Assembly (NCBI GenBank): GCA_964016885.1
Contig: OZ024742.1
Location: forward strand, 35,712,001 to 35,776,000
Direction: 5' to 3'
Source of the DNA: Eledone cirrhosa
Taxonomy: Eukaryota
DNA length: 64,000 nt
This document shows positions 3,776 through 64,000 of this stretch, one piece after another. Position numbers and translations under genes: made by a program. The notes beneath the pieces are model-generated. The model worked only from the letters and a program-made list of their open reading frames with translations, was not told the origin of the DNA and ran no database searches. Position 1 is the stretch's first letter. Each line of letters begins with the position of its first letter.

Positions 3776-3807
<32 letters not shown>

Positions 3808-3840
3808 GATTTGAATGGATACAGTTTAGTTGAAAGGAAT

Positions 3841-3961
3841 TTATTGACACGTGTTTCTAAAACAGTTACATAACCTGAAAACAGCTACTATCTACAAAGT
3901 TTTAGTTATGCAGACATTCAATATTTCAATGTTATTATTTACTGTCATTTCATCAGAATAA
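3841..3961 (-). ncRNA. Type I HHR with a 92-nt stem II insertion
   Basis: Minus strand: TTATT-CTGATGA-[92 nt, aatgACAG...CTGTttta]-GAAA-CACGTG-TC-AATAA. Confidence 0.7.
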
Positions 3962-4529
3962 TATTACTGAGGACCTATTTGGTTTTTATAGAGAATATTA
4001 GGAGGGAGGGGTGAAGTTGTTAGAAGAATAGTTGAGGGAGTGGTTTTTTGATAGCAGTGAGAATTTTTGGTGGCAGTGAGTAATTAGATTCCCATCTGTT
4101 GTTTTGACATTTTTATAGAATATATTATTGGTTATTTTTCTAAATCTATAGAAGGATTAGAGATAGTAAAGATATGCGTGGTTGGTTTTGTGCCTGCACT
4201 TAATTAACATTCAGACTTAAATTTTTCTTTCAAGTGTACGTATCCTTTCACCCACGCATTCACACACAAATATATTTGCACACCTCTACAAAATACATAT
4301 ACTCACATTCACATAGTAACATGTTCATACTTACATACATATACACATGCATACATATATATATACACACATGTATTCATGTACATACATACATACGCGT
4401 TCATGTGTATACATTTTCATACTCAACTTATCTTTATATACACACGTATAGACACACACATATATACATACATACTCTAGTCTATGTGTACATATATACA
4501 TATACATACACATCTATATATATATATAC

Positions 4530-4610
<81 letters not shown>

Positions 4611-4878
4611 CACTTTAATACATGAATACACTTACATCTAACTATACACATCAAACATATATATATATTTACTTATTTATATACATTTTCACATATATAT
4701 ACATACTTATGGTCGCTTTTAGACACATTCATTATCGCATTTTTGCACCTATTCTCATCAGCATATCTTTCCATTATTAGTGTGGTAATTTAAGGTTATT
4801 AATATATGTTGAGAAGAGATTGTTTTTATATTTTTCTAACTAGATTGAGGTTTATATAGTTGGGGGGATGTCCCTCTT

Positions 4879-5504
4879 TTATGTAATATTCGGCTTGTAG
4901 TGGGAAAAAAGGGTTTTAGTTCTGTGACGGCAGAATAATGTTCGTTCAATTCTGTTATTCAGCAATTTCTTCTTGTGTGTGATTATGTAATAAATCTCAA
5001 GATTACACAATTTGCAGAAATTTTGGCTCCTGGAAAAGCTTTGGGTTTTAGCTAATTTCTCCCATTTTAGGGTAAACTTTTGATCGCTATCCCTGAGCGT
5101 CCAAGCTTTTTCTGCTAAAGTTGTTACATTTCTTTGGCTCTGGTGTTTTATTGAGTAAGAATGCCTATATAATCGAGATTTAAACGATGTTGCCGTTGAT
5201 CCCACGTAATACCACTCGTTGCCTCCGGATTTAATGGTACACTTATAAATAATATTTTTTTCCAGGCAGTTATTGCCGAGGGGGCAGTTGTCAGGATAGG
5301 TGCAGTTACAGTTGTGTACGTTGGGTTTTCTCTGGAGTAGTATTGCGGACGAACTTAGGTGTGGTTTATTTATGTTCTGTAGTGTATTGTCTACTGTTTT
5401 TTTTGTGTTCTTTGTACTTAAGTTCTTAGTGTTTTCGTTTAACCTTCTAGTATTGATTTTTTTGTGTGTTGTTCAAGGTTTAACGCTGTAGAGTATGACA
5501 GTCT

Positions 5505-11904: not shown

Positions 11905-12097
11905 TATAGAGATAGATAAATCTACCAAAATGTACGGCAGTGTCCAATCCGTATGAAGAACTCAATGTAATCCGAATATCATGAAAAGAGAAGATGTATT
12001 CAAAAAAATTTTTCGGTGAAAATTAACGGAAAACAGAGTCAAGATAAATTAATAAAATAATGAATAAACAAAGAAACAGTTCCTTATATTAAAAAAT

Positions 12098-12235
12098 TCA
12101 TCATTTTACGATCGTTTCTAGGATATATATGTTAGTGTTGGTATGCATATCCTATAGATCTATGTAAAAATTTTACAAACTATCAGAGGGAATATACATT
12201 CCTACACATATATATGCTGTCTTCAGAAATAATGA
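12098..12235 (-). ncRNA. Type I HHR with a 101-nt stem II insertion (mirror of 15308-15455)
   Basis: Minus strand: TCATTATTT-CTGAAGA-[101 nt]-GAAA-CGATCG-TA-AAATGATGA. Confidence 0.72.
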
Positions 12236-12923
12236 TATTTGTTTATTGAAAAAACCAACAAAGATTTAATACAATAGGTCTGTTTGGGAACAGGTTTTGA
12301 ATTGACCAATAGAAGGATAGTGAAGGTCAAGATAGTAATATAGTAGTAAAAGAACCTTAATTTATGGGTAGAGGAAGGTAGATTTCAGTTTTGGATGGAA
12401 AGAATATTATGAATGAAAGATTATTTTAGGGATGAGAATAGGTCATATGCTGACCTCAGAAATAATTATATTTGTTCATTGAATAAAACCAACAAAGATT
12501 TAATATAGTAGGTTTGTTTGGGAACAGGTTTTGAATTAACCAATAGAAAGGTAATAATTGGCCAAATGGTAAAATAGTAGTAATTGAAATTTATTTTGGG
12601 GTAGAAGAAGGCAGATTTCAGTTTTGAATGGAAGGAGTATGAAGAATGAAAAGTTTATTTTAGGGGTGAAAATAGGTCAGGTCAGTAAAAGGTAACACGA
12701 AAAGTTGCTGTTATAAAAGAATAATGTAAATATCTAAGGAGACTAAAATTTTACGATAAAAGTGTTAGTGAAAAAAATATATATGGAATTTACATCTATG
12801 AAAAGAAAATAAATTAATTTAATTGATGGGTATATTTATATTGATAAAATTATATTAATGCTTATAGATATGATAAATAAGAGTGCTGTTAAAGACGAGG
12901 GGGAATTTAAAAAAATATAAAAA

Positions 12924-12982
<59 letters not shown>

Positions 12983-13216
12983 TTGGGGGGGGGGGGTAAA
13001 TTTATTAGTGAGAAATAATAAATATATAGAGATTTCAAGGAACATAGAATCATAACCTGAAATTAAAACATTATATATGTTTACTTAATGGTATCAAAAT
13101 TAGGAAAAGATAGTTGTAAGAAGGAAAGTAAATTTATGAAGTTCATCAGTAGTAGAATATTAATTATTGGTTACCTAAATTAAAAATAGTTTTTATATTA
13201 ATTTCTAAAATGTATA

Positions 13217-13724
13217 TTAATTAGGTTTATAATATTTAAAGGTTTTTCTCAGTTTATGATTACACGATATTATTAATTCCTGTCGCTTATTTAATAGGAT
13301 ATCCTTAGATTTCATTATTTCAAAAAGTTCTTGGGAACATAATTTACATTCATATCTATTATTTTGATAAGGGGTGGCCCTTTTGAGCACACTCCAGGTC
13401 AGGTCATAATCTATATTCCTCTTTCTATAATTATTAATTATTTCAGCTAGAGATGTTGTATTAGCTAATGCGGCATTTTTAAAACTGTGTTTGTGGGTAT
13501 TAAATCTTACCTTAAATTGGTTAGAGGTAGCTCCTATATATGAATAAATTGAGTCCTTAGTGTTAACTTTACATTTATATACTATGTTATTAACAAGGCA
13601 ATTTCCTTTTAATGGGCAGTTTGCTTTGTTTCTACAGTTACAACTTTTCTTGAATCCTGTATCAGAGGAGATATTATGGTTAGTTTGATGTACTCGTGGT
13701 ATGCTCATGGTTTTTTTACATTTT
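13217..13724 (-). pseudogene. PLE GIY-YIG endonuclease C-terminus (left arm)
   Basis: CNCRNKANCPLKGNC...IVYKC...YIGAT..FKVRFNTH...LTW...CKLC..E...LLNKRQE...CNH. Confidence 0.88.
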
Positions 13725-13729
13725 TTACA

Positions 13730-14344
13730 TTTTTTACAACCACAAATACCATCAAATTTTAAATAGATCAACGGTTAAATTCTCCTACTCAACAACCAAA
13801 AACATAAAACAAAATATAAGTGACTACAATGCATATAAATGTAAAAAAAACCATGAGTATACCACGAGTACATCAAACTAACCATAATATCTCCTCTGAT
13901 ACAGGATTCAAGAAAAGTTGTAACTGTAGAAACAAAGCAAACTGCCCATTAAAAGGAAATTGCCTTGTTAATAACATAGTATATAAATGTAAAGTTAACA
14001 CTAAGGACTCAATTTATCCATATATAGGAGCTACCTCTAACCAATTTAAGGTAAGATTTAATACCCACAAACATAGTTTTAAAAATGCCGCATTAGCTAA
14101 TACAACATCTCTAGCTGAAATAATTAATAATTATAGAAAGAGGAATATAGATTATGACCTGACCTGGAGTGTGCTCAAAAGGGCCACCCCTTATCAAAAT
14201 AATAGATATGAATGTAGATTATGTTCCCAAGAACTTTTTGAAATAATGAAATCTAAGGATATCCTATTAAATAAGCGACAGGAATTAATAATATCGTGTA
14301 ATCATAAACTGAGAAAAACCTTTAAATATTATAAACCTAATTAA
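13730..14344 (+). pseudogene. PLE linker plus GIY-YIG endonuclease (right arm; +1 frameshift in the A-run at 13843-13850)
   Basis: ILNRSTVKFSYSTTKNIKQNISDYN joins KKTMSIPR...CNCRNKANCPLKGNC if the A8 run is read as A7, which is its length in the left arm. Confidence 0.88.
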
Positions 14345-14863
14345 TATACATTTTAGAAATTAATATAAAAACTATTTTTAATTTAGGTAACCAATAATTA
14401 ATATTCTACTACTGATGAACTTCATAATTTTACTTTCCTTCTTACAACTATCTTTTCCTAAAATTGATACCATTAAGTAAACATATATAATGTTTTAATT
14501 TCAGGTTATGATTCTATGTTCCTTGAAATCTCTATATATTTATTATTTCTCACTAATAAATTTACCCCCCCCCCCAATAATTATATATATATATATATTC
14601 TTTTTATATTTTTTTTAATTCCCCCTCGTCTTTAACAGCACTCTTCAATTACATCTAACTCTTATTTATCATATCTATAAGCATTAATATAATTTTATCA
14701 ATATAAATATACCCATCAATTAAATTAATTTATTTTCTTTTCATAGATGTAAATTCCATATATATTTTTTTCACTAACACTTTTATCGTAAAATTTTAGT
14801 CTCCTTAGATATTTACATTATTCTTTTATAACAGCAACTTTTCGTGTTACCTTTTACTGACCT

Positions 14864-15330
14864 GACCTATTTTCACCCCTAAAATAAACTTTTCATTCTT
14901 CATACTCCTTCCATTCAAAACTGAAATCTGCCTTCTTCTACCCCAAAATAAATTTCAATTACTACTATTTTACCATTTGGCCAATTATTATCTTTCTATT
15001 GGTTAATTCAAAACCTGTTCCCAAACAAACCTACTATATTAAATCTTTGTTGGTTTTATTCAATGAACGAATATAATTATTTCTGAGGTCAGCATATGAC
15101 CTATTCTCATCCCTAAAATAATCTTTCATTCATAATATTCTTTCCATCCAAAACTGAAATCTACCTTCCTCTAACCATAAATTAAGGTTCTTTTACTACT
15201 ATATTACTATCTTGACCTTCACTATCTTTCTATTGGTCAATTCAAAACCTGTTCCCAAACAGACCTATTGTATTAAATCTTTGTTGGTTTTTTTCAATAA
15301 ACAAATATCATTATTTCTGAAGACAGCATA
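14864..15330 (+). repeat. Diverged tandem duplication (~233 bp x2) in the PLE 3' UTR
   Basis: TGACCTATT...ATTTCTGA(GGT/AGA)CAGCATA occurs at 14864-15096 and 15097-15330. It is mirrored in the left arm. Confidence 0.85.
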
Positions 15331-15455
15331 TATATGCGTATATATGTGTAGGAATGTATATTCCCTCTGATAGTTTGTAAAATTTTTACATAGATCTATA
15401 GGATATGCATACCAACACTAACATATATATCCTAGAAACGATCGTAAAATGATGA
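15308..15455 (+). ncRNA. Type I HHR with a 111-nt stem II insertion
   Basis: TCATTATTT-CTGAAGA(15317)-[111 nt closed by ATATATATG/CATATATAT]-GAAA(15435)-CGATCG-TA-AAATGATGA. Stem I is 9 bp with one G-U pair. Confidence 0.72.
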
Positions 15456-15503
15456 ATTTTTTAATATAAGGAACTGTTTCTTTGTTTATTCATTATTTTA
15501 TTA

Positions 15504-15574
<71 letters not shown>

Positions 15575-17712: not shown

Positions 17713-17785
<73 letters not shown>

Positions 17786-18722
17786 GCTTGAGTAAGGCTA
17801 CTTCAAAGCAGGCTTTTTTTTTTTTGCTATGAAAACTAGTCGGGCAAGTTGGGCATAAAAGCCGCTAGAACGGGAAAAAGTGGACATTAACGCTGTTTAC
17901 AAACACACCGAGCATTATAATAAATGTTCGGTGAATCTATACGTACATATATATATGTGTGCATGTATGTATATATATATATATACATACTACTGTACGT
18001 CTGTATACATATATGTATGTACGTATATTTAAGTAACAGCCGTACTAAAAGTGAGAAATGAAATTTCGTTTCATTTTTTCCGTTTAAGTACCTAGCTTAA
18101 AGACAAAACTCACCACCTGGAATCAAACTCACGGGCCGAACAGTCGAGCGTCTAAAGCCACGCACCTTCACACAATATTTCTAAATGATATTTTTTGAAA
18201 GACTGACTGCAGTTTTCAATATGCCCTTCATTTCTAAAGAGGTAGGTTATACTTTAAGAGTCTCCACTGCTATTTCCAGTCGTTCTAGCTACCATTTAGA
18301 AGAATGGCTCCCTCGTTTTGATCTTGGAGAACATGTATAGACTTAGTACGTTGGCTTTAAAATAACATGTTAAATAATGGCGCAAGGCCAATTGAAAGCG
18401 GTTGGCTTCCTGCCAAACCACCATATCTGTATAAGAAACACGTTTACGATAAAAAAAAAAAAATGGCGCACAGCATTGCGATTAAAAACAGCCGAATACG
18501 ATATGTAATTTTTTAATGCATTATTTTAATCTTCGTATTGGATGATAGCGTATGTATGATATAGTTGAGGATATAGTGGCGTAGGCGCTAAAGTATCTCT
18601 TTGTGCGGAGTTGTTATTGTTATTGTTGTTGTTTTTTGTTGTTGTGGTTGTTGGTGGTGGTTATGGTGGTGTAGTGGTTGTCTATAAATATAAATATGCA
18701 TAAATATACACATGCATTCATA

Positions 18723-19179
<457 letters not shown>

Positions 19180-19625
19180 TATTTATACTCCAGTCCCAAA
19201 CTGTAGAGTGCTACTTATCCGATATCTGCATTGCTTTATTGTACTACAATAAAACTCACCTCCTACATTATATATATATATATATATACATACATGCACT
19301 ATATAATAACTGCAGTTAGGTTTACGATAGTCCCTAACGCATACATATGCCACATCATACATGCAGACGACATACAGATACACATACACCAACACTACAC
19401 GCTGGGTGACATATTACTTTAGTTAAGTTGGCAATAACTAGAAATAAACGAATACAGAAATAAACAACTGAATAAATAAATATATATATAATTAGATATA
19501 AATAGATGTAAAGTATAAATAACAAATAAATACATATACAAATATATACAAGACATATATATAAATGGAAAAAATGAAATTTCATTTCTCACTCTTAGTA
19601 CGGCTGATACTTATACATATACATA

Positions 19626-35963: not shown

Positions 35964-36629
35964 ATCTATAAATAATTTATGAAGAATATATAATATGACG
36001 GGTAATTTTGAATAACAGTAATAAAAATGTATAAATATATGAAAATATAATTAAATATCGTTGTCTTTTTAAACTGCATTCTTTAAGACGTCTTTCTTTT
36101 ATTTTCAAAGAGAAAAAGGTGTAGTGTGGGTGAAATATGCTTACTGGTTTATTTTAGCAGGTTCAATGACCATATAACTGTTTTCTAGACAAACTGGAGC
36201 AGAATTATCATCGAAGGTGTACAAGCCATAAGGAAAAAAGTCACAGAAAAAAGTTACAATTTGGGTTAAGAAAAAAGAAAAATATCACATCTCATTATAT
36301 ATATATAGAAAGGGCGGTGAATTGGCAGTATCGGTAGAGGGTTGAACGCCATGCGTTGACGCATAGAGTTACTGCCCTTGCCATTCTGAGTTCAAATCCC
36401 GCCGAGGTTAACTTTGCCTTTCATCCTTACGGGGTCGATAAAATAAAGTACCAGTAATGCACCGGGAAATTGCTGGCCTTGTGCCAAAAGTAGAAACAAT
36501 TATATATATATAGAAAAAAAGATGAAATCGAAAATGCAACTGGAGTGTTATTTTTTTTTAAAAATATATATTTATTTGGTTCCTTTACGGATTTCGCAGT
36601 TCTTCTGCTTTTCAAAAGTAGAGTTGAGA

Positions 36630-37519
36630 TGGAGGGTCTGTGGTTTTTCTCACATCAGATGTGGTACCTCCGTAAAAACACTTATTAGCAAGACATACCC
36701 GTTCCAAAGACCCTCATGTATAGATAAGAAATGTATAACCTGTAAAATAAGCCCCCATATTAACTGTAAAACTAGAAATGTAGTGTATAGCATAAGATGT
36801 ACTGAAGGACAATGTAGAAACAAAAATATAGTGTACATAGGTGAGACAGCTCGTAGTATAGGGGAACGAATAAATGAACACTGGCGAGACCTTCAAGATA
36901 ATAAAGAATCATCTGTGCTCTACCAACATGCTAAGATAGAACACAGGGTTAAATTAGAGAACATAGAAATAAAAATAGAATCCACACACAGAAAAGATGC
37001 AATGTTTAGGCAAATTACAGAGGCAGTAAGCATAAAAGAATTATAACCAAAATTAAATAGAAAATATGAGTGGAACAGCAACATCACAACTTACAATTAA
37101 GGACAAAATGAAAACACACACACACATAGAACAAACAACCAACCAACAATAAATAAATAAATAAATAAATAAATAAACAAATAGATAAATGAACACAAAC
37201 ACACACAGACACCCGGATGTGGCGCATGCGCAAACTGAGCACACAACACACACACAGAAACAAAATGGCGTAGGACAGAAGAAAGGAAAGCCACAGAAAC
37301 AAAGAAAGGAATCCCCAGTCACTGAAGAGGTCACAGAGTGTGTGACGAAAGGACTATGACTATATATAAACAACTATCTGGTTGTGGAACCAACCAACCA
37401 ACCAGAAATTTATAAGTTTGTAGATTTGTAAATTTATAAATTTATAAATATATAATAAATTGAAGTGAAAGCAGCTGGTGCGTGTGTTTCTTATTGGCAA
37501 CATGACCCTCCCAAAGTAT

Positions 37520-37525
<6 letters not shown>
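36630..37525 (+). mobile_element. 5'-truncated Penelope-like element: Cys-rich linker, GIY-YIG, 3' UTR HHR and a tail ending in (TA)n
   Basis: CIDKKCITC...NCKTRNVVYSIRC...VYIGETARSIGERINEH...SVLYQH...RQITEAVSI, with an HHR at 37317. Confidence 0.88.
37317..37361 (+). ncRNA. Minimal type I HHR
   Basis: AGTCA-CTGAAGA-gGTCACAgagtgTGTGAC-GAAA-GGAC-TA-TGACT. Confidence 0.82.
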
Positions 37526-39793: not shown

Positions 39794-39861
39794 TATTTTA
39801 TCTGATGAGAACGCAGATATCATCCCATGATGATATTTGTTTTTGAAATGCGCATAATAAA
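39794..39861 (+). ncRNA. Type I HHR (family of 19074)
   Basis: TTTAT-CTGATGA-stem II-GAAA-TGCGCA-TA-ATAAA. Confidence 0.82.
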
Positions 39862-42639: not shown

Positions 42640-42823
42640 AGATAGATAAATATTAGTTTAACCATGATAATAATAAGAAAGGCAAGTTACTTTACATATT
42701 TTTACATATTTCATTCATTATATATATATATATATGTGTGCGTGTGTATGTATATATACATATATGTATATATATATATATCTATATCTATATATATATA
42801 TATATATCTATATATATATACAT

Positions 42824-43694
42824 AGGACTTAAAATTAACCTGGCTAAGACCAAAGTACTAGTTTGTAGGAAAGAAAACAAGGCGGCGGTCCCTTCTGGGA
42901 AATGGTCGTGCTCGGTGTGTAGGAAAGGCGTAGGTAGAAACTCCATTTTATGTCCTAAATGCAAAGTATGGGTGCATAAAAGATGTAGTGGGATCACAGG
43001 TAGGCTAACTAAGAACATAGATTTTACATGTGGCCGGTGCTCTGGTGCAATAAGTAGCAGCAAGTGCCCACAAACTACTAGCTCTTTCAATTGCGCAGAG
43101 GGTTCTATAGAAATAGTGGACAGCTTCCGTTACCTGGGCGATAAAATCAGCAGTGGGGGAGGGTGCTCTGAAAGTACTGTAGCTAGAGTCAGAACTGGTT
43201 GGAAAAAGTTCAGAGAGCTTATACCACTATTAGCTGCTAAAGGGTTCTCACTAAAAATGAAAGGCAGGTTGTACGATGCCTGCATACGAACAGCAATGCT
43301 GCATGGCAGTGAGACCTGGGCATTGTGTGCAGAGGATATACGCAGACTAGAGAGGAACGAAGCTTGCATGCTCCGCTGGATGTGTAACAGTAATATACGT
43401 GAACGGCAAAGCATAAACGAACTAAGGAATAAATTAGAGATAAGAGGGATCAGATGTTGTTTACTCGAGAGAAGGCTACGTTGGTATGGACACGTGATGC
43501 GCATGAAAGTCGATAGCTGTATAACAAAGTGCAGGGCAATAAAGATAGACGGTAGTCACGGAATAGGCAGACCTAGAAAAACCTGGGACGAGCTGATAAA
43601 CTCCGACATCACACACTTACACCTCTCCAAGACAATGTCACTGGACCGAGACCTTTGGCGGTACTCAGTAACAGAGAAGACCCGCCTTACCTAA
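42824..43694 (+). pseudogene. 5'-truncated RTE-clade LINE ORF2 (end of the RT domain, an inserted PHD-like finger and the C-terminus); the frame is still open
   Basis: GLKINLAKTKVL...EIVDSFRYLGD...WKKFRELIPLL...MLHGSETW...RRLRWYGHVMRM...GRPRKTW...DRDLWR. The N-terminus of the tracked ORF is microsatellite. Confidence 0.92.
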
Positions 43695-57714: not shown

Positions 57715-58339
57715 GATTGGTGCTCTGAAATAGCGATGTATACATGAATGTATATAGTATATCTGGCGATATACTGTGTTTAATTACAAACATGTTGAAG
57801 ACCTTGCGCTATTATTTTAAAATAATAGCGCAAGGTCTTCTTTTTTTTGTACTGTTGACCATGTTATTCTCCACGTTTTCAATTTTATTACTCCAAGATA
57901 AACTTACATAGGAATACAAGTGAAATCATAAACTCGTCATCTACGTAAACCCCTTGTTGAGTCAAGCAACGCCGTACGCTAAAACTATCCATAATAAGTA
58001 TTCACAACCTTTAATTGGATTACCTATAACGATATTTTGTTATCCTTTATATATATTATTTAATTTATCAATTCTTCATTGAGCCACATCGTGAACGGTT
58101 GCCACATATATATATATGTGACTTTATGTATATGTAAATCTTTATATTTAAGAATCTCCCGTTGGGTTGAGATGCAATTTGGGCGATATTGGGCTGCGCT
58201 TTCTAGCAACCAGCCTACTCGCCATAAGCAACTAATCACATTCTTTCTAACTTGACCACTGCCACGTCACGATTCTTAGCCATTTTTTAAATCTATTTCT
58301 AGCGGGATCGCTTTGGAAAATTAACTGTCCTATTGAGTT

Positions 58340-58418
58340 TGTCTCCTGATGAGTTCGATACTCGAGATTTATCCTTAATAGGATATCTCAAAATACGAAC
58401 GAAACCATGGTAGGGATA
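58340..58418 (+). ncRNA. Type I HHR with an extended stem II
   Basis: TGTCTC-CTGATGA-GTTCG..GAGAT..ATCCTtaatAGGAT-ATCTC..CGAAC-GAAA-CCATGG-TA-GGGATA. Confidence 0.85.
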
Positions 58419-58717
58419 TAATTACGGTATGTACACATTCTTCTAACTTTAAATTTATATCTAATTGTGTATAGTTGACGATATATTTGGTCAGTTTCTA
58501 CATGCTGTTGAAATGTTGGGTAAATACTCTATTGTGGTCAACCGCGAAGAGGCTGCTTTCGGTTATTTATCAAATATTTCTTCATAGGAGCCTTTGTTCT
58601 TATAGCCTGGTCTAATTAATTTTTTATATGGTTAATTATGCTAATTGGGAGAGGAAATTGTATATATTTTATCTAATAATTCTAAGGACATGATTTATGA
58701 TATATATATATATATAT

Positions 58718-59476
58718 AATTAAGTCAAAGATGTACATCCATATATGTATACTGAAATACTAGTATGTATATGAATACACACACGTATACATATGTAGAT
58801 GTACCAAGTTTTTTTTCACTGATCACTTTACTGTGAGTGGCCAGCTATTCTGTATGTAAACACACAGACAAACCGGTTTTTAGAGTCATACTGGTTTTTG
58901 AGGAAACACCTTTCCTCTATTCTCCAGAAAGCCAGACAAGGAATATTGAACTAGTTTCGTTGTTGTTACAACTCATCAGCAATATTTACCTATCTTCCGG
59001 CCTCTCTAGAGAATCGTAAAAGCACATATCGCTATATGCTTTTTCTATGAAAATTAGTAGTGGGCAGACCAACTTGCATAGAGTGTGAGTAAGTACCGGT
59101 TCAACGGAGACGATAAAAACAAATAACGAAACGAAATTAAATTTCGTTTCGTTTGTAACTCACTTTTGTATGACTGACGCTCAAACAATTAAGTCAAAGA
59201 TGTACATCCATATATGTATACTGAAATACTAGTATGTATATGAATACACACACGTATACATATGTAGATGTACCAAGTTTTTTTTCACTGATCACTTTAC
59301 TGTGAGTGGCCAGCTATTCTGTATGTAAACACACAGACAAACCGGTTTTTAGAGTCATACTGGTTTTTGAGGAAACACCTTTCCTCTATTCTCCAGAAAG
59401 CCAGACAAGGAATATTGAACTAGTTTCGTTGTTGTTACAACTCATCAGCAATATTTACCTATCTTCCGGCCTGTCT
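58718..59476 (-). repeat. Inverted ~1.6 units of the 470-bp repeat, abutting (TA)n; HHRs at 58942-58986 and 59411-59455
   Basis: Reverse complement of the downstream unit. The junction is at 59476/59477. Confidence 0.95.
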
Positions 59477-62400
59477 TTGGTCTGCCCACTACTAATTTTC
59501 ATAGAAAAAGCATATAGCGATATGTGCTTTTACGATTCTCTAGAGAGGCCGGAAGATAGGTAAATATTGCTGATGAGTTGTAACAACAACGAAACTAGTT
59601 CAATATTCCTTGTCTGGCTTTCTGGAGAATAGAGGAAAGGTGTTTCCTCAAAAACCAGTATGACTCTAAAAACCGGTTTGTCTGTGTGTTTACATACAGA
59701 ATAGCTGGCCACTCACAGTAAAGTGATCAGTGAAAAAAAAACTTGGTACATCTACATATGTATACGTGTGTGTATTCATATACATACTAGTATTTCAGTA
59801 TACATATATGGATGTACATCTTTGACTTAATTGTTTGAGCGTCAGTCATACAAAAGTGAGTTACAAACGAAACGAAATTTAATTTCGTTTCGTTATTTGT
59901 TTTTATCGTCTCCGTTGAACCGGTACTTACTCACACTCTATGCAAGTTGGTCTGCCCACTACTAATTTTCATAGAAAAAGCATATAGCGATATGTGCTTT
60001 TACGATTCTCTAGAGAGGCCGGAAGATAGGTAAATATTGCTGATGAGTTGTAACAACAACGAAACTAGTTCAATATTCCTTGTCTGGCTTTCTGGAGAAT
60101 AGAGGAAAGGTGTTTCCTCAAAAACCAGTATGACTCTAAAAACCGGTTTGTCTGTGTGTTTACATACAGAATAGCTGGCCACTCACAGTAAAGTGATCAG
60201 TGAAAAAAAAACTTGGTACATCTACATATGTATACGTGTGTGTATTCATATACATACTAGTATTTCAGTATACATATATGGATGTACATCTTTGACTTAA
60301 TTGTTTGAGCGTCAGTCATACAAAAGTGAGTTACAAACGAAACGAAATTTAATTTCGTTTCGTTATTTGTTTTTATCGTCTCCGTTGAACCGGTACTTAC
60401 TCACACTCTATGCAAGTTGGTCTGCCCACTACTAATTTTCATAGAAAAAGCATATAGCGATATGTGCTTTTACGATTCTCTAGAGAGGCCGGAAGATAGG
60501 TAAATATTGCTGATGAGTTGTAACAACAACGAAACTAGTTCAATATTCCTTGTCTGGCTTTCTGGAGAATAGAGGAAAGGTGTTTCCTCAAAAACCAGTA
60601 TGACTCTAAAAACCGGTTTGTCTGTGTGTTTACATACAGAATAGCTGGCCACTCACAGTAAAGTGATCAGTGAAAAAAAACTTGGTACATCTACATATGT
60701 ATACGTGTGTGTATTCATATACATACTAGTATTTCAGTATACATATATGGATGTACATCTTTGACTTAATTGTTTGAGCGTCAGTCATACAAAAGTGAGT
60801 TACAAACGAAACGAAATTTAATTTCGTTTCGTTATTTGTTTTTATCGTCTCCGTTGAACCGGTACTTACTCACACTCTATGCAAGTTGGTCTGCCCACTA
60901 CTAATTTTCATAGAAAAAGCATATAGCGATATGTGCTTTTACGATTCTCTAGAGAGGCCGGAAGATAGGTAAATATTGCTGATGAGTTGTAACAACAACG
61001 AAACTAGTTCAATATTCCTTGTCTGGCTTTCTGGAGAATAGAGGAAAGGTGTTTCCTCAAAAACCAGTATGACTCTAAAAACCGGTTTGTCTGTGTGTTT
61101 ACATACAGAATAGCTGGCCACTCACAGTAAAGTGATCAGTGAAAAAAAAAAACTTGGTACATCTACATATGTATACGTGTGTGTATTCATATACATACTA
61201 GTATTTCAGTATACATATATGGATGTACATCTTTGACTTAATTGTTTGAGCGTCAGTCATACAAAAGTGAGTTACAAACGAAACGAAATTTAATTTCGTT
61301 TCGTTATTTGTTTTTATCGTCTCCGTTGAACCGGTACTTACTCACACTCTATGCAAGTTGGTCTGCCCACTACTAATTTTCATAGAAAAAGCATATAGCG
61401 ATATGTGCTTTTACGATTCTCTAGAGAGGCCGGAAGATAGGTAAATATTGCTGATGAGTTGTAACAACAACGAAACTAGTTCAATATTCCTTGTCTGGCT
61501 TTCTGGAGAATAGAGGAAAGGTGTTTCCTCAAAAACCAGTATGACTCTAAAAACCGGTTTGTCTGTGTGTTTACATACAGAATAGCTGGCCACTCACAGT
61601 AAAGTGATCAGTGAAAAAAAACTTGGTACATCTACATATGTATACGTGTGTGTATTCATATACATACTAGTATTTCAGTATACATATATGGATGTACATC
61701 TTTGACTTAATTGTTTGAGCGTCAGTCATACAAAAGTGAGTTACAAACGAAACGAAATTTAATTTCGTTTCGTTATTTGTTTTTATCGTCTCCGTTGAAC
61801 CGGTACTTACTCACACTCTATGCAAGTTGGTCTGCCCACTACTAATTTTCATAGAAAAAGCATATAGCGATATGTGCTTTTACGATTCTCTAGAGAGGCC
61901 GGAAGATAGGTAAATATTGCTGATGAGTTGTAACAACAACGAAACTAGTTCAATATTCCTTGTCTGGCTTTCTGGAGAATAGAGGAAAGGTGTTTCCTCA
62001 AAAACCAGTATGACTCTAAAAACCGGTTTGTCTGTGTGTTTACATACAGAATAGCTGGCCACTCACAGTAAAGTGATCAGTGAAAAAAAAAAACTTGGTA
62101 CATCTACATATGTATACGTGTGTGTATTCATATACATACTAGTATTTCAGTATACATATATGGATGTACATCTTTGACTTAATTGTTTGAGCGTCAGTCA
62201 TACAAAAGTGAGTTACAAACGAAACGAAATTTAATTTCGTTTCGTTATTTGTTTTTATCGTCTCCGTTGAACCGGTACTTACTCACACTCTATGCAAGTT
62301 GGTCTGCCCACTACTAATTTTCATAGAAAAAGCATATAGCGATATGTGCTTTTACGATTCTCTAGAGAGGCCGGAAGATAGGTAAATATTGCTGATGAGT

Positions 62401-64000
62401 TGTAACAACAACGAAACTAGTTCAATATTCCTTGTCTGGCTTTCTGGAGAATAGAGGAAAGGTGTTTCCTCAAAAACCAGTATGACTCTAAAAACCGGTT
62501 TGTCTGTGTGTTTACATACAGAATAGCTGGCCACTCACAGTAAAGTGATCAGTGAAAAAAAACTTGGTACATCTACATATGTATACGTGTGTGTATTCAT
62601 ATACATACTAGTATTTCAGTATACATATATGGATGTACATCTTTGACTTAATTGTTTGAGCGTCAGTCATACAAAAGTGAGTTACAAACGAAACGAAATT
62701 TAATTTCGTTTCGTTATTTGTTTTTATCGTCTCCGTTGAACCGGTACTTACTCACACTCTATGCAAGTTGGTCTGCCCACTACTAATTTTCATAGAAAAA
62801 GCATATAGCGATATGTGCTTTTACGATTCTCTAGAGAGGCCGGAAGATAGGTAAATATTGCTGATGAGTTGTAACAACAACGAAACTAGTTCAATATTCC
62901 TTGTCTGGCTTTCTGGAGAATAGAGGAAAGGTGTTTCCTCAAAAACCAGTATGACTCTAAAAACCGGTTTGTCTGTGTGTTTACATACAGAATAGCTGGC
63001 CACTCACAGTAAAGTGATCAGTGAAAAAAAACTTGGTACATCTACATATGTATACGTGTGTGTATTCATATACATACTAGTATTTCAGTATACATATATG
63101 GATGTACATCTTTGACTTAATTGTTTGAGCGTCAGTCATACAAAAGTGAGTTACAAACGAAACGAAATTTAATTTCGTTTCGTTATTTGTTTTTATCGTC
63201 TCCGTTGAACCGGTACTTACTCACACTCTATGCAAGTTGGTCTGCCCACTACTAATTTTCATAGAAAAAGCATATAGCGATATGTGCTTTTACGATTCTC
63301 TAGAGAGGCCGGAAGATAGGTAAATATTGCTGATGAGTTGTAACAACAACGAAACTAGTTCAATATTCCTTGTCTGGCTTTCTGGAGAATAGAGGAAAGG
63401 TGTTTCCTCAAAAACCAGTATGACTCTAAAAACCGGTTTGTCTGTGTGTTTACATACAGAATAGCTGGCCACTCACAGTAAAGTGATCAGTGAAAAAAAA
63501 CTTGGTACATCTACATATGTATACGTGTGTGTATTCATATACATACTAGTATTTCAGTATACATATATGGATGTACATCTTTGACTTAATTGTTTGAGCG
63601 TCAGTCATACAAAAGTGAGTTACAAACGAAACGAAATTTAATTTCGTTTCGTTATTTGTTTTTATCGTCTCCGTTGAACCGGTACTTACTCACACTCTAT
63701 GCAAGTTGGTCTGCCCACTACTAATTTTCATAGAAAAAGCATATAGCGATATGTGCTTTTACGATTCTCTAGAGAGGCCGGAAGATAGGTAAATATTGCT
63801 GATGAGTTGTAACAACAACGAAACTAGTTCAATATTCCTTGTCTGGCTTTCTGGAGAATAGAGGAAAGGTGTTTCCTCAAAAACCAGTATGACTCTAAAA
63901 ACCGGTTTGTCTGTGTGTTTACATACAGAATAGCTGGCCACTCACAGTAAAGTGATCAGTGAAAAAAAACTTGGTACATCTACATATGTATACGTGTGTG
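59477..64000 (+). repeat. Tandem array of 469-472-bp non-coding units, each with one HHR (retrozyme-like); runs off the window
   Basis: CTGATGA occurs at 59570, 60040, 60510, 60979, 61451, 61920, 62392, 62861, 63330 and 63799. The only differences I see are in one A-run (8, 9 or 11 A). Confidence 0.97.
59563..59607 (+). ncRNA. Minimal type I HHR of the array unit (first of 10 plus-strand copies); predicted cleavage after 59600
   Basis: AATATTG-CTGATGA-GTTGTaacaACAAC-GAAA-CTAG-TT-CAATATT. It has a perfect 7-bp stem I, a 5-bp stem II, an intact core and a GUU triplet. Confidence 0.92.

What the first reader, a model, noticed from the sequence alone, without database searches (positions are those of the whole stretch)
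58718..64000. Homogeneous 470-bp tandem array with one self-cleaving hammerhead per unit: a candidate retrozyme/circular-RNA system
Seen: at least 12 copies of a non-coding unit, each with an intact type I HHR (AATATTG-CTGATGA-GTTGTaacaACAAC-GAAA-CTAG-TT-CAATATT). The units look identical except for one A-run. The array starts at a (TA)n tract and its first ~1.6 units are inverted. Established: tandem type I HHR repeats (newt satellite 2, schistosome Sm-alpha, metazoan non-LTR retrozymes) yield monomer and circular RNAs, and minimal type I HHRs are typical of Penelope-like elements. Inference: a multimeric transcript self-cleaves into ~470-nt monomers that may circularise. A PLE reverse transcriptase/GIY-YIG acting in trans would then write the array by rolling-circle reverse transcription into (TA)n. 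I do not recognise this family.
Basis: partly seen in the sequence, partly recalled or inferred. Interest (0 to 1): 0.93.

Follow-up and report, generated by a model that had tools for sequence, protein, structure and literature searches.

The report
Two-armed Penelope-copied hammerhead retrozyme
This is one of thousands of insertions of a 470-base non-coding repeat that carries a predicted self-cutting RNA motif; the copies land as two back-to-back arms ending at two fixed points, which likely shows a Penelope-type jumping-gene enzyme copying one probably circular RNA from both sides of a DNA break.

Summary
Observation confirmed. The array holds 12 intact type I hammerhead motifs in 469–472-bp units that differ only in one A-run. 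A 1.6-unit inverted arm and a 9.9-unit direct arm sit between (TA)n tracts; the array ends 134 bp past the window. It is not a lone satellite: one end motif occurs 2,017 times in the genome. Of 100 insertions examined, 73 have two divergent arms, always one ending at unit position ~232 and one at ~306; one separate same-end exception was found. That is the two-start-site 'tail' of Penelope-like elements (PLEs), and coding PLE families here show it too. In 18 of 34 young arrays a substitution is fixed in every unit of both arms, and 595 of 596 passes over the cleavage site show no indel. Both favour rolling-circle copying of one monomer. A few arrays point to multimeric or two templates. No autonomous partner was identified, and expression and cleavage are untested. 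Verdict: a new member of the metazoan non-LTR retrozymes, with genomic support for a proposed mechanism that the papers read do not show. This scan reported the same system before, at other places in this genome.

The parts
58700..58717 (.). Left (TA)n target tract; it is also the 3' flank of a different hammerhead repeat
58718..59472 (-). Inverted arm, 1.6 units; its outer (3') end is at unit position 232, site A
58942..58986 (-). Type I hammerhead core in the inverted arm (second copy at 59411-59455)
59473..59476 (.). Central head-to-head junction (4 nt; reads as the inverted arm's continuation with one mismatch)
59477..64000 (+). Direct arm, 9.9 units in all; continues 134 bp past the window and ends at unit position 306, site B, in (TA)n
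   Evidence: L021
59554..59615 (+). Type I hammerhead: extended bulged stem I, CUGAUGA and GAAA core, 4-bp stem II, 2-bp palindromic stem III, GUU triplet; predicted cut after 59600, repeated at 60070, 60540, 61009, 61481, 61950, 62422, 62891, 63360, 63829
   Evidence: cleavage itself not tested
59601..60070 (+). One predicted monomer, cut to cut (470 nt): non-coding, strongly self-paired, ends brought together by stem I
59824..59910 (+). A-B 'tail' region: site A at 59832-59836, site B at 59906, hairpin at about 59865-59894; the best-conserved part of the unit (81 of 87 columns invariant); likely the reverse transcriptase initiation signal
59938..59951 (+). Hot spot of stepwise A-to-G changes in a predicted hairpin; an octamer-like ATGCAAAT in older subfamilies
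58340..58418 (+). Hammerhead (GUA triplet) of a different non-coding repeat family, unit about 660 bp (about 58040-58699), in whose TA flank the array sits

Best explanation
This is a young non-coding hammerhead repeat (a non-LTR retrozyme) dispersed to thousands of (TA)n sites, likely pasted by a Penelope-like element's protein that copies one probably circular RNA monomer from both ends of a DNA break. Steps: (1) an array is transcribed (inferred). (2) The hammerheads, probably acting as dimers through the palindromic stem III, cut out 470-nt monomers that a host ligase closes (inferred from published retrozymes). (3) A PLE GIY-YIG domain makes staggered nicks 10-13 bp apart in AT-rich DNA (duplications shown; enzyme inferred). 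(4) Each free 3' end primes cDNA on the same-sense RNA, one at position ~232 and one at ~306, either side of a conserved hairpin (end positions shown; priming inferred). (5) Both enzymes run round the template for up to 10-20 units (arm lengths shown; circle inferred). (6) The two cDNAs are joined head to head at random positions, often through 1-5-nt microhomology (shown). A-to-G changes likely record RNA editing of the template.
For: Dispersal: 2,017 exact site-B/TA junctions, control 0. Architecture: of 100 insertions, 73 A+B, 0 A+A, 0 B+B, 21 one-armed, 5 open or gapped, 1 interrupted. Positive control: coding PLE families in this genome also end at two discrete sites, about 35, 57, 92, 113 and 145 nt apart, and two PLE families have many near-identical intact ORFs. 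Duplications of 10-13 bp where flanks are informative (L041, L044). One template unit: 18 of 34 young arrays with both arms of at least 470 bp carry a substitution in every unit of both arms; 13 of these carry a change seen in no other young array sampled. No stop or scar at the cut: the 116 central 5' breakpoints are uniform over the unit (p = 0.73; 1 within 5 nt of the cut, 2.7 expected) and 595 of 596 crossings have no indel. RNA-level signs: catalytic core intact in 596 of 598 copies, a compensated stem II pair, A>G 18 against T>C 8 among array-fixed changes (p = 0.018). Literature: two internal start sites and extension of both strands by a PLE protein in vitro (PMC11167929); inverted 5' copy, one-sided tail and (TA)n bias in PLEs (PMC8557442).
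Against: No autonomous partner: none of 20 PLE clusters in 1.27 Mb of fetched DNA shares the A-B region, and no sampled family has a 70-74-nt tail. One true A+A insertion exists (L179). In L133 the two arms come from different subfamilies, and in L145 a 1-nt insertion is confined to one arm, so one template is not universal. L027 and L044 share a variant between a minority of units of both arms, and L026, L045 and L053 show periodic variants, which fits multimeric templates or later duplications. PMC11167929 found that hammerhead cleavage was not needed in vitro, that uncut RNA was the main substrate, and no difference of start site between strands. The GUU triplet and 2-bp stem III predict weak cleavage, and only 1 of 9 predicted Xenopus retrozymes cleaved in vitro. 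The A>G excess is modest and rests on one parsimony tree.
Confidence: 0.66

Rival explanations
1. Same PLE-driven two-ended insertion, but the usual template is an uncut linear multimer transcribed from an existing array; the hammerhead is incidental or acts only at transcript ends.
For: Uncut RNA was the main substrate of a PLE in vitro (PMC11167929). Weak GUU, 2-bp stem III ribozyme. L044 and L027 carry a variant in single units of both arms; L045 and L053 have higher-order periods. Seamless crossings of the cut site fit this too.
Against: It does not explain how a new substitution becomes fixed in all units of both arms in 18 of 34 young arrays, 13 with changes seen in no other sampled young array, when 66 of the young subfamily's listed site-A ends were examined. 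A one-unit bottleneck is needed somewhere in the cycle.
Confidence: 0.22
2. Linear cut monomers are copied repeatedly by template jumping from the 5' end back to the 3' end of the same or another monomer.
For: It would also give array-wide variants; L133 shows that a switch between templates can occur.
Against: No pile-up of 5' ends at the cut (1 of 116) and 595 of 596 crossings without indel.
Confidence: 0.05
3. Short PLE-type insertions are expanded afterwards at the DNA level (slippage, unequal crossing over, gene conversion), as in an ordinary satellite.
For: Periodic variants within one arm in L026, L045 and L053; the satellite-birth route is the one discussed in 10.64898/2026.07.22.740005.
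Against: Arrays that are 99-100% identical across chromosomes already hold up to 20 units, in both inverted arms (26 of 61 with both arms over two units); private variants are shared by both arms.
Confidence: 0.05
4. Assembly artefact: a collapsed repeat or palindromic chimera.
For: Units are identical apart from a homopolymer run; long reads were not available here.
Against: The same two ends recur at 73 loci with different flanks and target duplications; arrays carry their own variants; contigs of a separate public run show both A-to-TA and B-to-TA junctions (X1, which may be the same sample).
Confidence: 0.02

Closest known systems
Metazoan non-LTR retrozymes (coral, mussel, axolotl; Cervera and de la Pena 2020, PMC7229834: passages and parts 3-4 of 6 read; Li, Clavereau and Pollet 2026, 10.64898/2026.07.22.740005: parts 1-3 of 5 read)
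   Same: Tandem non-coding units with one type I hammerhead each, low GC, strongly self-paired monomer, weak palindromic helix III, duplications longer than 4 bp, co-occurrence with PLEs; circular RNA and PLE mobilisation proposed.
   Different: Unit 470 nt (170-400 nt in the 2020 study; 51-972 bp in the 2026 one). The parts read describe head-to-tail repeats and do not describe two divergent arms, two fixed ends or array-wide private variants. The review PMC7761336 (passages) states that the repeats show no conserved motif pointing to their mobiliser. Circular RNA is shown there and untested here.
Endonuclease-positive Penelope-like elements and their insertion unit (Craig et al. 2021, PMC8557442, passages; Frangieh et al. 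2024, PMC11167929, parts 1-2 of 4; Adineta vaga study PMC3846280, passages)
   Same: Inverted 5'-truncated copy head to head, a tail at one end only, two internal start sites around a stem-loop, AT-rich or (TA)n targets, 8-10-bp duplications, hammerhead in the repeat; non-autonomous multi-copy derivatives are known in Chlamydomonas (MRC1).
   Different: No ORF; tail 70-74 nt rather than 30-40; both arms are multimers of one unit; the hammerhead is of the full type with an extended stem I; no coding element sharing the unit was found.
LINE-1 twin priming (search listing and abstract start only; the mechanism otherwise recalled)
   Same: Both target strands prime cDNA; inverted arms joined by microhomology; target duplication.
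   Different: Here both priming sites are fixed and internal, there is no poly(A) tail, and the two arms copy the same sequence many times over.
Newt satellite 2 and schistosome Sm-alpha (known here through PMC7229834; otherwise recalled)
   Same: Tandem type I hammerhead repeats; dimeric cleavage when helix III is short.
   Different: No sequence relation was tested; insertion architecture was not compared.

Membership tests
Metazoan non-LTR retrozyme | Short tandem repeats with one type I hammerhead per unit | tested here: met
Metazoan non-LTR retrozyme | No protein-coding capacity | tested here: met
   longest ATG ORF 19 aa sense, 31 aa antisense over a tetramer; no tRNA
Metazoan non-LTR retrozyme | Dispersed copies, GC under 50%, target duplications longer than 4 bp, no LTR layout | tested here: met
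   PBS and PPT were not searched separately
Metazoan non-LTR retrozyme | Highly self-paired monomer | tested here: met
   -156 kcal/mol, z = -9.2
Metazoan non-LTR retrozyme | Self-cleavage of monomer or dimer transcripts | not testable with these tools
   needs in vitro transcription
Metazoan non-LTR retrozyme | Accumulation of circular RNA in vivo | not testable with these tools
   needs raw RNA reads or a Northern blot
Non-autonomous PLE derivative | PLE insertion signature: inverted arm, one-sided tail from two fixed ends, AT-rich target, short duplication | tested here: met
   control in coding PLEs
Non-autonomous PLE derivative | Sequence similarity to the pLTR or 3' end of an autonomous PLE | tested here: inconclusive
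   none among 20 clusters in 1.27 Mb; most of the 3-Gb genome was not examined
Autonomous Penelope-like element | RT plus GIY-YIG ORF between pLTRs | tested here: not met
   arms consist only of units in all insertions examined
Rfam hammerhead families | Score at or above the gathering threshold | tested here: not met
   HH9 37.7 bits against 52; core and stems are nevertheless present

The most novel reading that the evidence does not exclude
Penelope retrotransposition is a coupled two-headed reaction: a protein dimer clamps one RNA hairpin, starts one cDNA on each side of it from the two ends of a staggered break, and on a ribozyme-made RNA circle both heads roll round the same molecule. 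This retrozyme would be a self-circularising parasite of that reaction whose lineage evolves partly by A-to-I editing written back into DNA.
Probability: 0.4. Interest if true: 0.8.

Novelty: new member of a known kind. Interest (0 to 1): 0.57.

Why it matters
Which enzyme moves animal retrozymes, and whether their circular RNAs are real transposition templates, has been proposed since 2020 but is not shown in the papers read. How PLEs make their inverted arm and one-sided tail is also unsettled. This family gives a countable footprint for all three: one arm from each of two fixed sites in 73 of 73 two-armed insertions of the main sample, one sequence in both arms, and no scar at the ribozyme cut. 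It names a 470-nt substrate with two predicted start sites, in a genome with intact young PLE ORFs, for a direct in vitro test. A confirmed enzyme-circle pair would be a compact system for writing multimers from circular RNA into DNA.

Tried and rejected
No RNA holder was listed by the run search; this says nothing about expression. The low-share holders in organisms B, C and D were not interpretable. The partner search led nowhere: low-stringency BLAST of the unit against 45 loci of two intact PLE families and against all loci then held, scoring of DNA downstream of 91 GIY-YIG hits (the high scores were neighbouring retrozyme arrays), and tail comparison. Pfam barely recognises these PLE proteins. 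Two apparent same-end pairs were rejected after inspection: L061 is two separate insertions, and L180 is a composite of two subfamilies fused at the hairpin. Rfam microRNA and snoRNA hits far below threshold were rejected as hairpin or TA matches. Covariation over the whole unit is uninformative (1 of 150 pairs). The target duplication at the window's own locus cannot be resolved in pure (TA)n. The paper on the snRNA-type promoter of newt satellite 2 was not held, so the promoter idea stays recalled and untested. The host taxon was not tested; 'cephalopod' appears only in earlier scan notes. Supplements of the bioRxiv preprint and of the other papers were not seen and may describe inverted retrozyme arrays.
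Full report
Observation. The window is G000:C3:35712001-35776000 of a 3.0-Gb, microsatellite-rich genome. There are 10 plus-strand and 2 minus-strand copies of an exact 45-nt hammerhead motif, and the nine complete plus units (469-472 bp) differ only in an A-run. Positions below are numbered from the base after the predicted cut (position 1 = window 59601). The inverted arm covers 58718-59472 and ends outward at position 232. The direct arm starts at 59477 and ends 134 bp beyond the window at position 306, again in (TA)n. The whole insertion is about 5.4 kb and 11.5 units.

The ribozyme. The motif has the CUGAUGA and GAAA core, a 4-bp stem II, an extended bulged stem I, a 2-bp stem III closed by a palindrome, and a GUU triplet; older subfamilies have GUC. 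Rfam finds nothing at gathering threshold and HH9 at 37.7 bits, E 2.8e-7. One stem II pair is compensated between subfamilies (A-U in 6, U-A in 4 of 10 rows; probably one event). The core is intact in 596 of 598 copies. The monomer is non-coding and folds at -156 kcal/mol, z = -9.2, with its ends paired. Cleavage itself was not tested.

A dispersed, young family. A DNA search gave 305 candidate places, of which 28 were scored, with 324 matches; the 150 listed are 99-100% identical. The junction of position 306 with (TA)n occurs 2,017 times, control 0. The position-232 junction gives 107 partly redundant matches for the window's subfamily (66 distinct places among the 100 listed) and 827 forward-strand matches for the wider family. 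Subfamilies range from 86 to 100% identity.

Architecture. I examined 100 insertions: 26 from the best DNA hits, 21 anchored on the first 20 listed 306-ends, and 53 anchored on listed 232-ends not already counted. In 73, a minus arm and a plus arm diverge from a central junction, one ending at 231-236 (site A) and the other at 300-306 (site B); 8 of these have one arm of only about 10-40 nt and 2 were resolved across two loci. None was A+A or B+B; 21 had one arm, 5 ran into a gap or the edge of the fetched DNA, and 1 was interrupted. A separate pairing by coordinates over the first 108 Mb of contig 1 gave 36 divergent neighbours: 33 A+B (9 already counted), 2 A+A and 1 B+B. On inspection one A+A is real (L179), one is a composite, and the B+B is two insertions. 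The rule is therefore strong but not absolute. Where flanks are not pure TA, duplications of 10-13 bp are visible (L041, L044). Central junctions overlap by 1-5 nt in 28 of 58 cases and are blunt in 5; the rest have extra or mismatched bases, partly because A-run and subfamily variation stop the exact mapping. The A-B stretch is the best-conserved part of the unit (81 of 87 columns invariant, against 74-86% elsewhere) and holds a hairpin.

This is the PLE signature. Craig et al. describe an inverted 5'-truncated copy, a 30-40-bp tail often at one end only, and (TA)n bias (PMC8557442, passages). Frangieh et al. show a purified PLE protein that nicks and extends both strands and starts at two adjacent internal sites in a stem-loop, the tail being the stretch between them (PMC11167929, parts 1-2 of 4). 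As an internal control, five coding PLE families sampled here end at two discrete sites about 35, 57, 92, 113 and 145 nt apart. Two families are young and intact: 58 scored matches at 98-100% identity with frames of about 777 aa, and 101 scored at 95% or more, many with 785-aa frames. None is shown to be the partner. No homology to the A-B region was found behind 91 GIY-YIG hits in 20 clusters or in the 45 PLE loci.

The template. In 18 of 34 young arrays with both arms of at least one unit, a substitution is present in every unit of both arms; 13 of them carry a change found in no other young array sampled (four older arrays were left out of this count). A new change can fill both arms only if all units descend from one unit at or shortly before insertion. 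The 116 central breakpoints are uniform over the unit (p = 0.73), with 1 near the cut where 2.7 are expected, and 595 of 596 passes over the cut have no indel. The enzyme therefore does not meet a free 5' end there, which favours a closed circle or an uncut multimer over template jumping. Arm lengths correlate (rho 0.47, 61 loci; partly an effect of how loci were chosen) and B arms are longer (median 1,333 against 904 bp). Against a single rule: the arms of L133 come from two subfamilies, L145 has an arm-specific insertion, L027 and L044 share a variant in a minority of units of both arms, and L026, L045 and L053 are periodic. Multimeric templates, two-template events or later duplications account for a minority.

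Editing-like changes. On a tree of 67 arrays (L133 left out; branch to the five outgroup arrays not counted), array-fixed changes include 18 A>G against 8 T>C on the sense strand (p = 0.018), while G>A and C>T are 9 and 7. Sporadic within-array changes show 8 A>G and 7 T>C. At positions 338-351 five haplotypes differ only by stepwise A>G. This suggests A-to-I editing of the RNA template but does not prove it. I took this lead from an earlier scan note and tested it here.

Comparison and novelty. By every feature testable here it is a metazoan non-LTR retrozyme (PMC7229834, passages and parts 3-4 of 6). That paper proposes rolling reverse transcription of circles with PLEs as strong candidates, and a 2026 preprint argues a PLE origin from co-occurrence and pLTR similarity in vertebrates (10.64898/2026.07.22.740005, parts 1-3 of 5). 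A review states that these repeats show no motif pointing to their mobiliser (PMC7761336, passages). Five literature searches and the parts read gave no description of two-armed retrozyme insertions with fixed ends; supplements were not seen. The scan itself has reported the same system several times in this genome, including 467/468-bp units that are probably this family; those notes are not independent evidence.

Verdict. A real, young and abundant element of a known kind, not an artefact and not a new class. Its value is the quantitative footprint linking retrozymes to PLE enzymes and to a one-unit template. Shown: structure, dispersal, ends, duplications, variant patterns. Inferred: transcription, cleavage, circularisation, the enzyme and editing. 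Interest 0.57.

Noticed in passing
window about 58040-58699: One unit of a different non-coding hammerhead repeat (about 660 bp, GUA triplet, long stem II); 4,812 candidate places, 94-97% identity among those scored, also two-armed with ends about 100 nt apart. The array sits in its TA flank.
   Followed up: partly
window 11909-15507: Head-to-head pair of truncated PLE 3' ends (GIY-YIG ORFs at 13217-13774 minus and 13820-14344 plus) with 234-bp repeats in the 3' UTR and outer ends about 130-145 nt apart: a coding example of the same layout.
   Followed up: partly
window 17783-18090; L048:7540-9400; L054:270-700: A distant sister repeat family sharing the hairpin, the octamer-like motif and the palindromic stem III, with a GUA hammerhead; also two-armed.
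   Followed up: partly
window 18830-19270: Inverted pair of short hammerhead-bearing ends (cores at 18946 minus and 19076 plus; another at 39796), of a family that follows a GIY-YIG ORF in L046.
   Followed up: partly
window 3800-5472 (minus) and 36447-37520 (plus): 3' fragments of two more PLE families with hammerhead-like motifs in their terminal repeats; the first is 98% identical to the intact 785-aa family.
   Followed up: partly
L133:5443-9571: One insertion whose two arms come from different subfamilies, with a switch inside the longer arm.
   Followed up: partly
L180:1643-4381: Two insertions of different subfamilies fused at the palindromic A-B hairpin, suggesting recombination or self-targeting there.
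   Followed up: partly
window 59940-59947: Octamer ATGCAAAT in older subfamilies and the sister family, eroded by A>G in the youngest; a possible snRNA-type promoter element (the link to newt satellite 2 is recalled, not checked).
   Followed up: no
window 42657-43694: Fragment of a non-LTR retrotransposon-like ORF (judged by eye) with a PHD-finger match; similar fragments recur in several loci.
   Followed up: no
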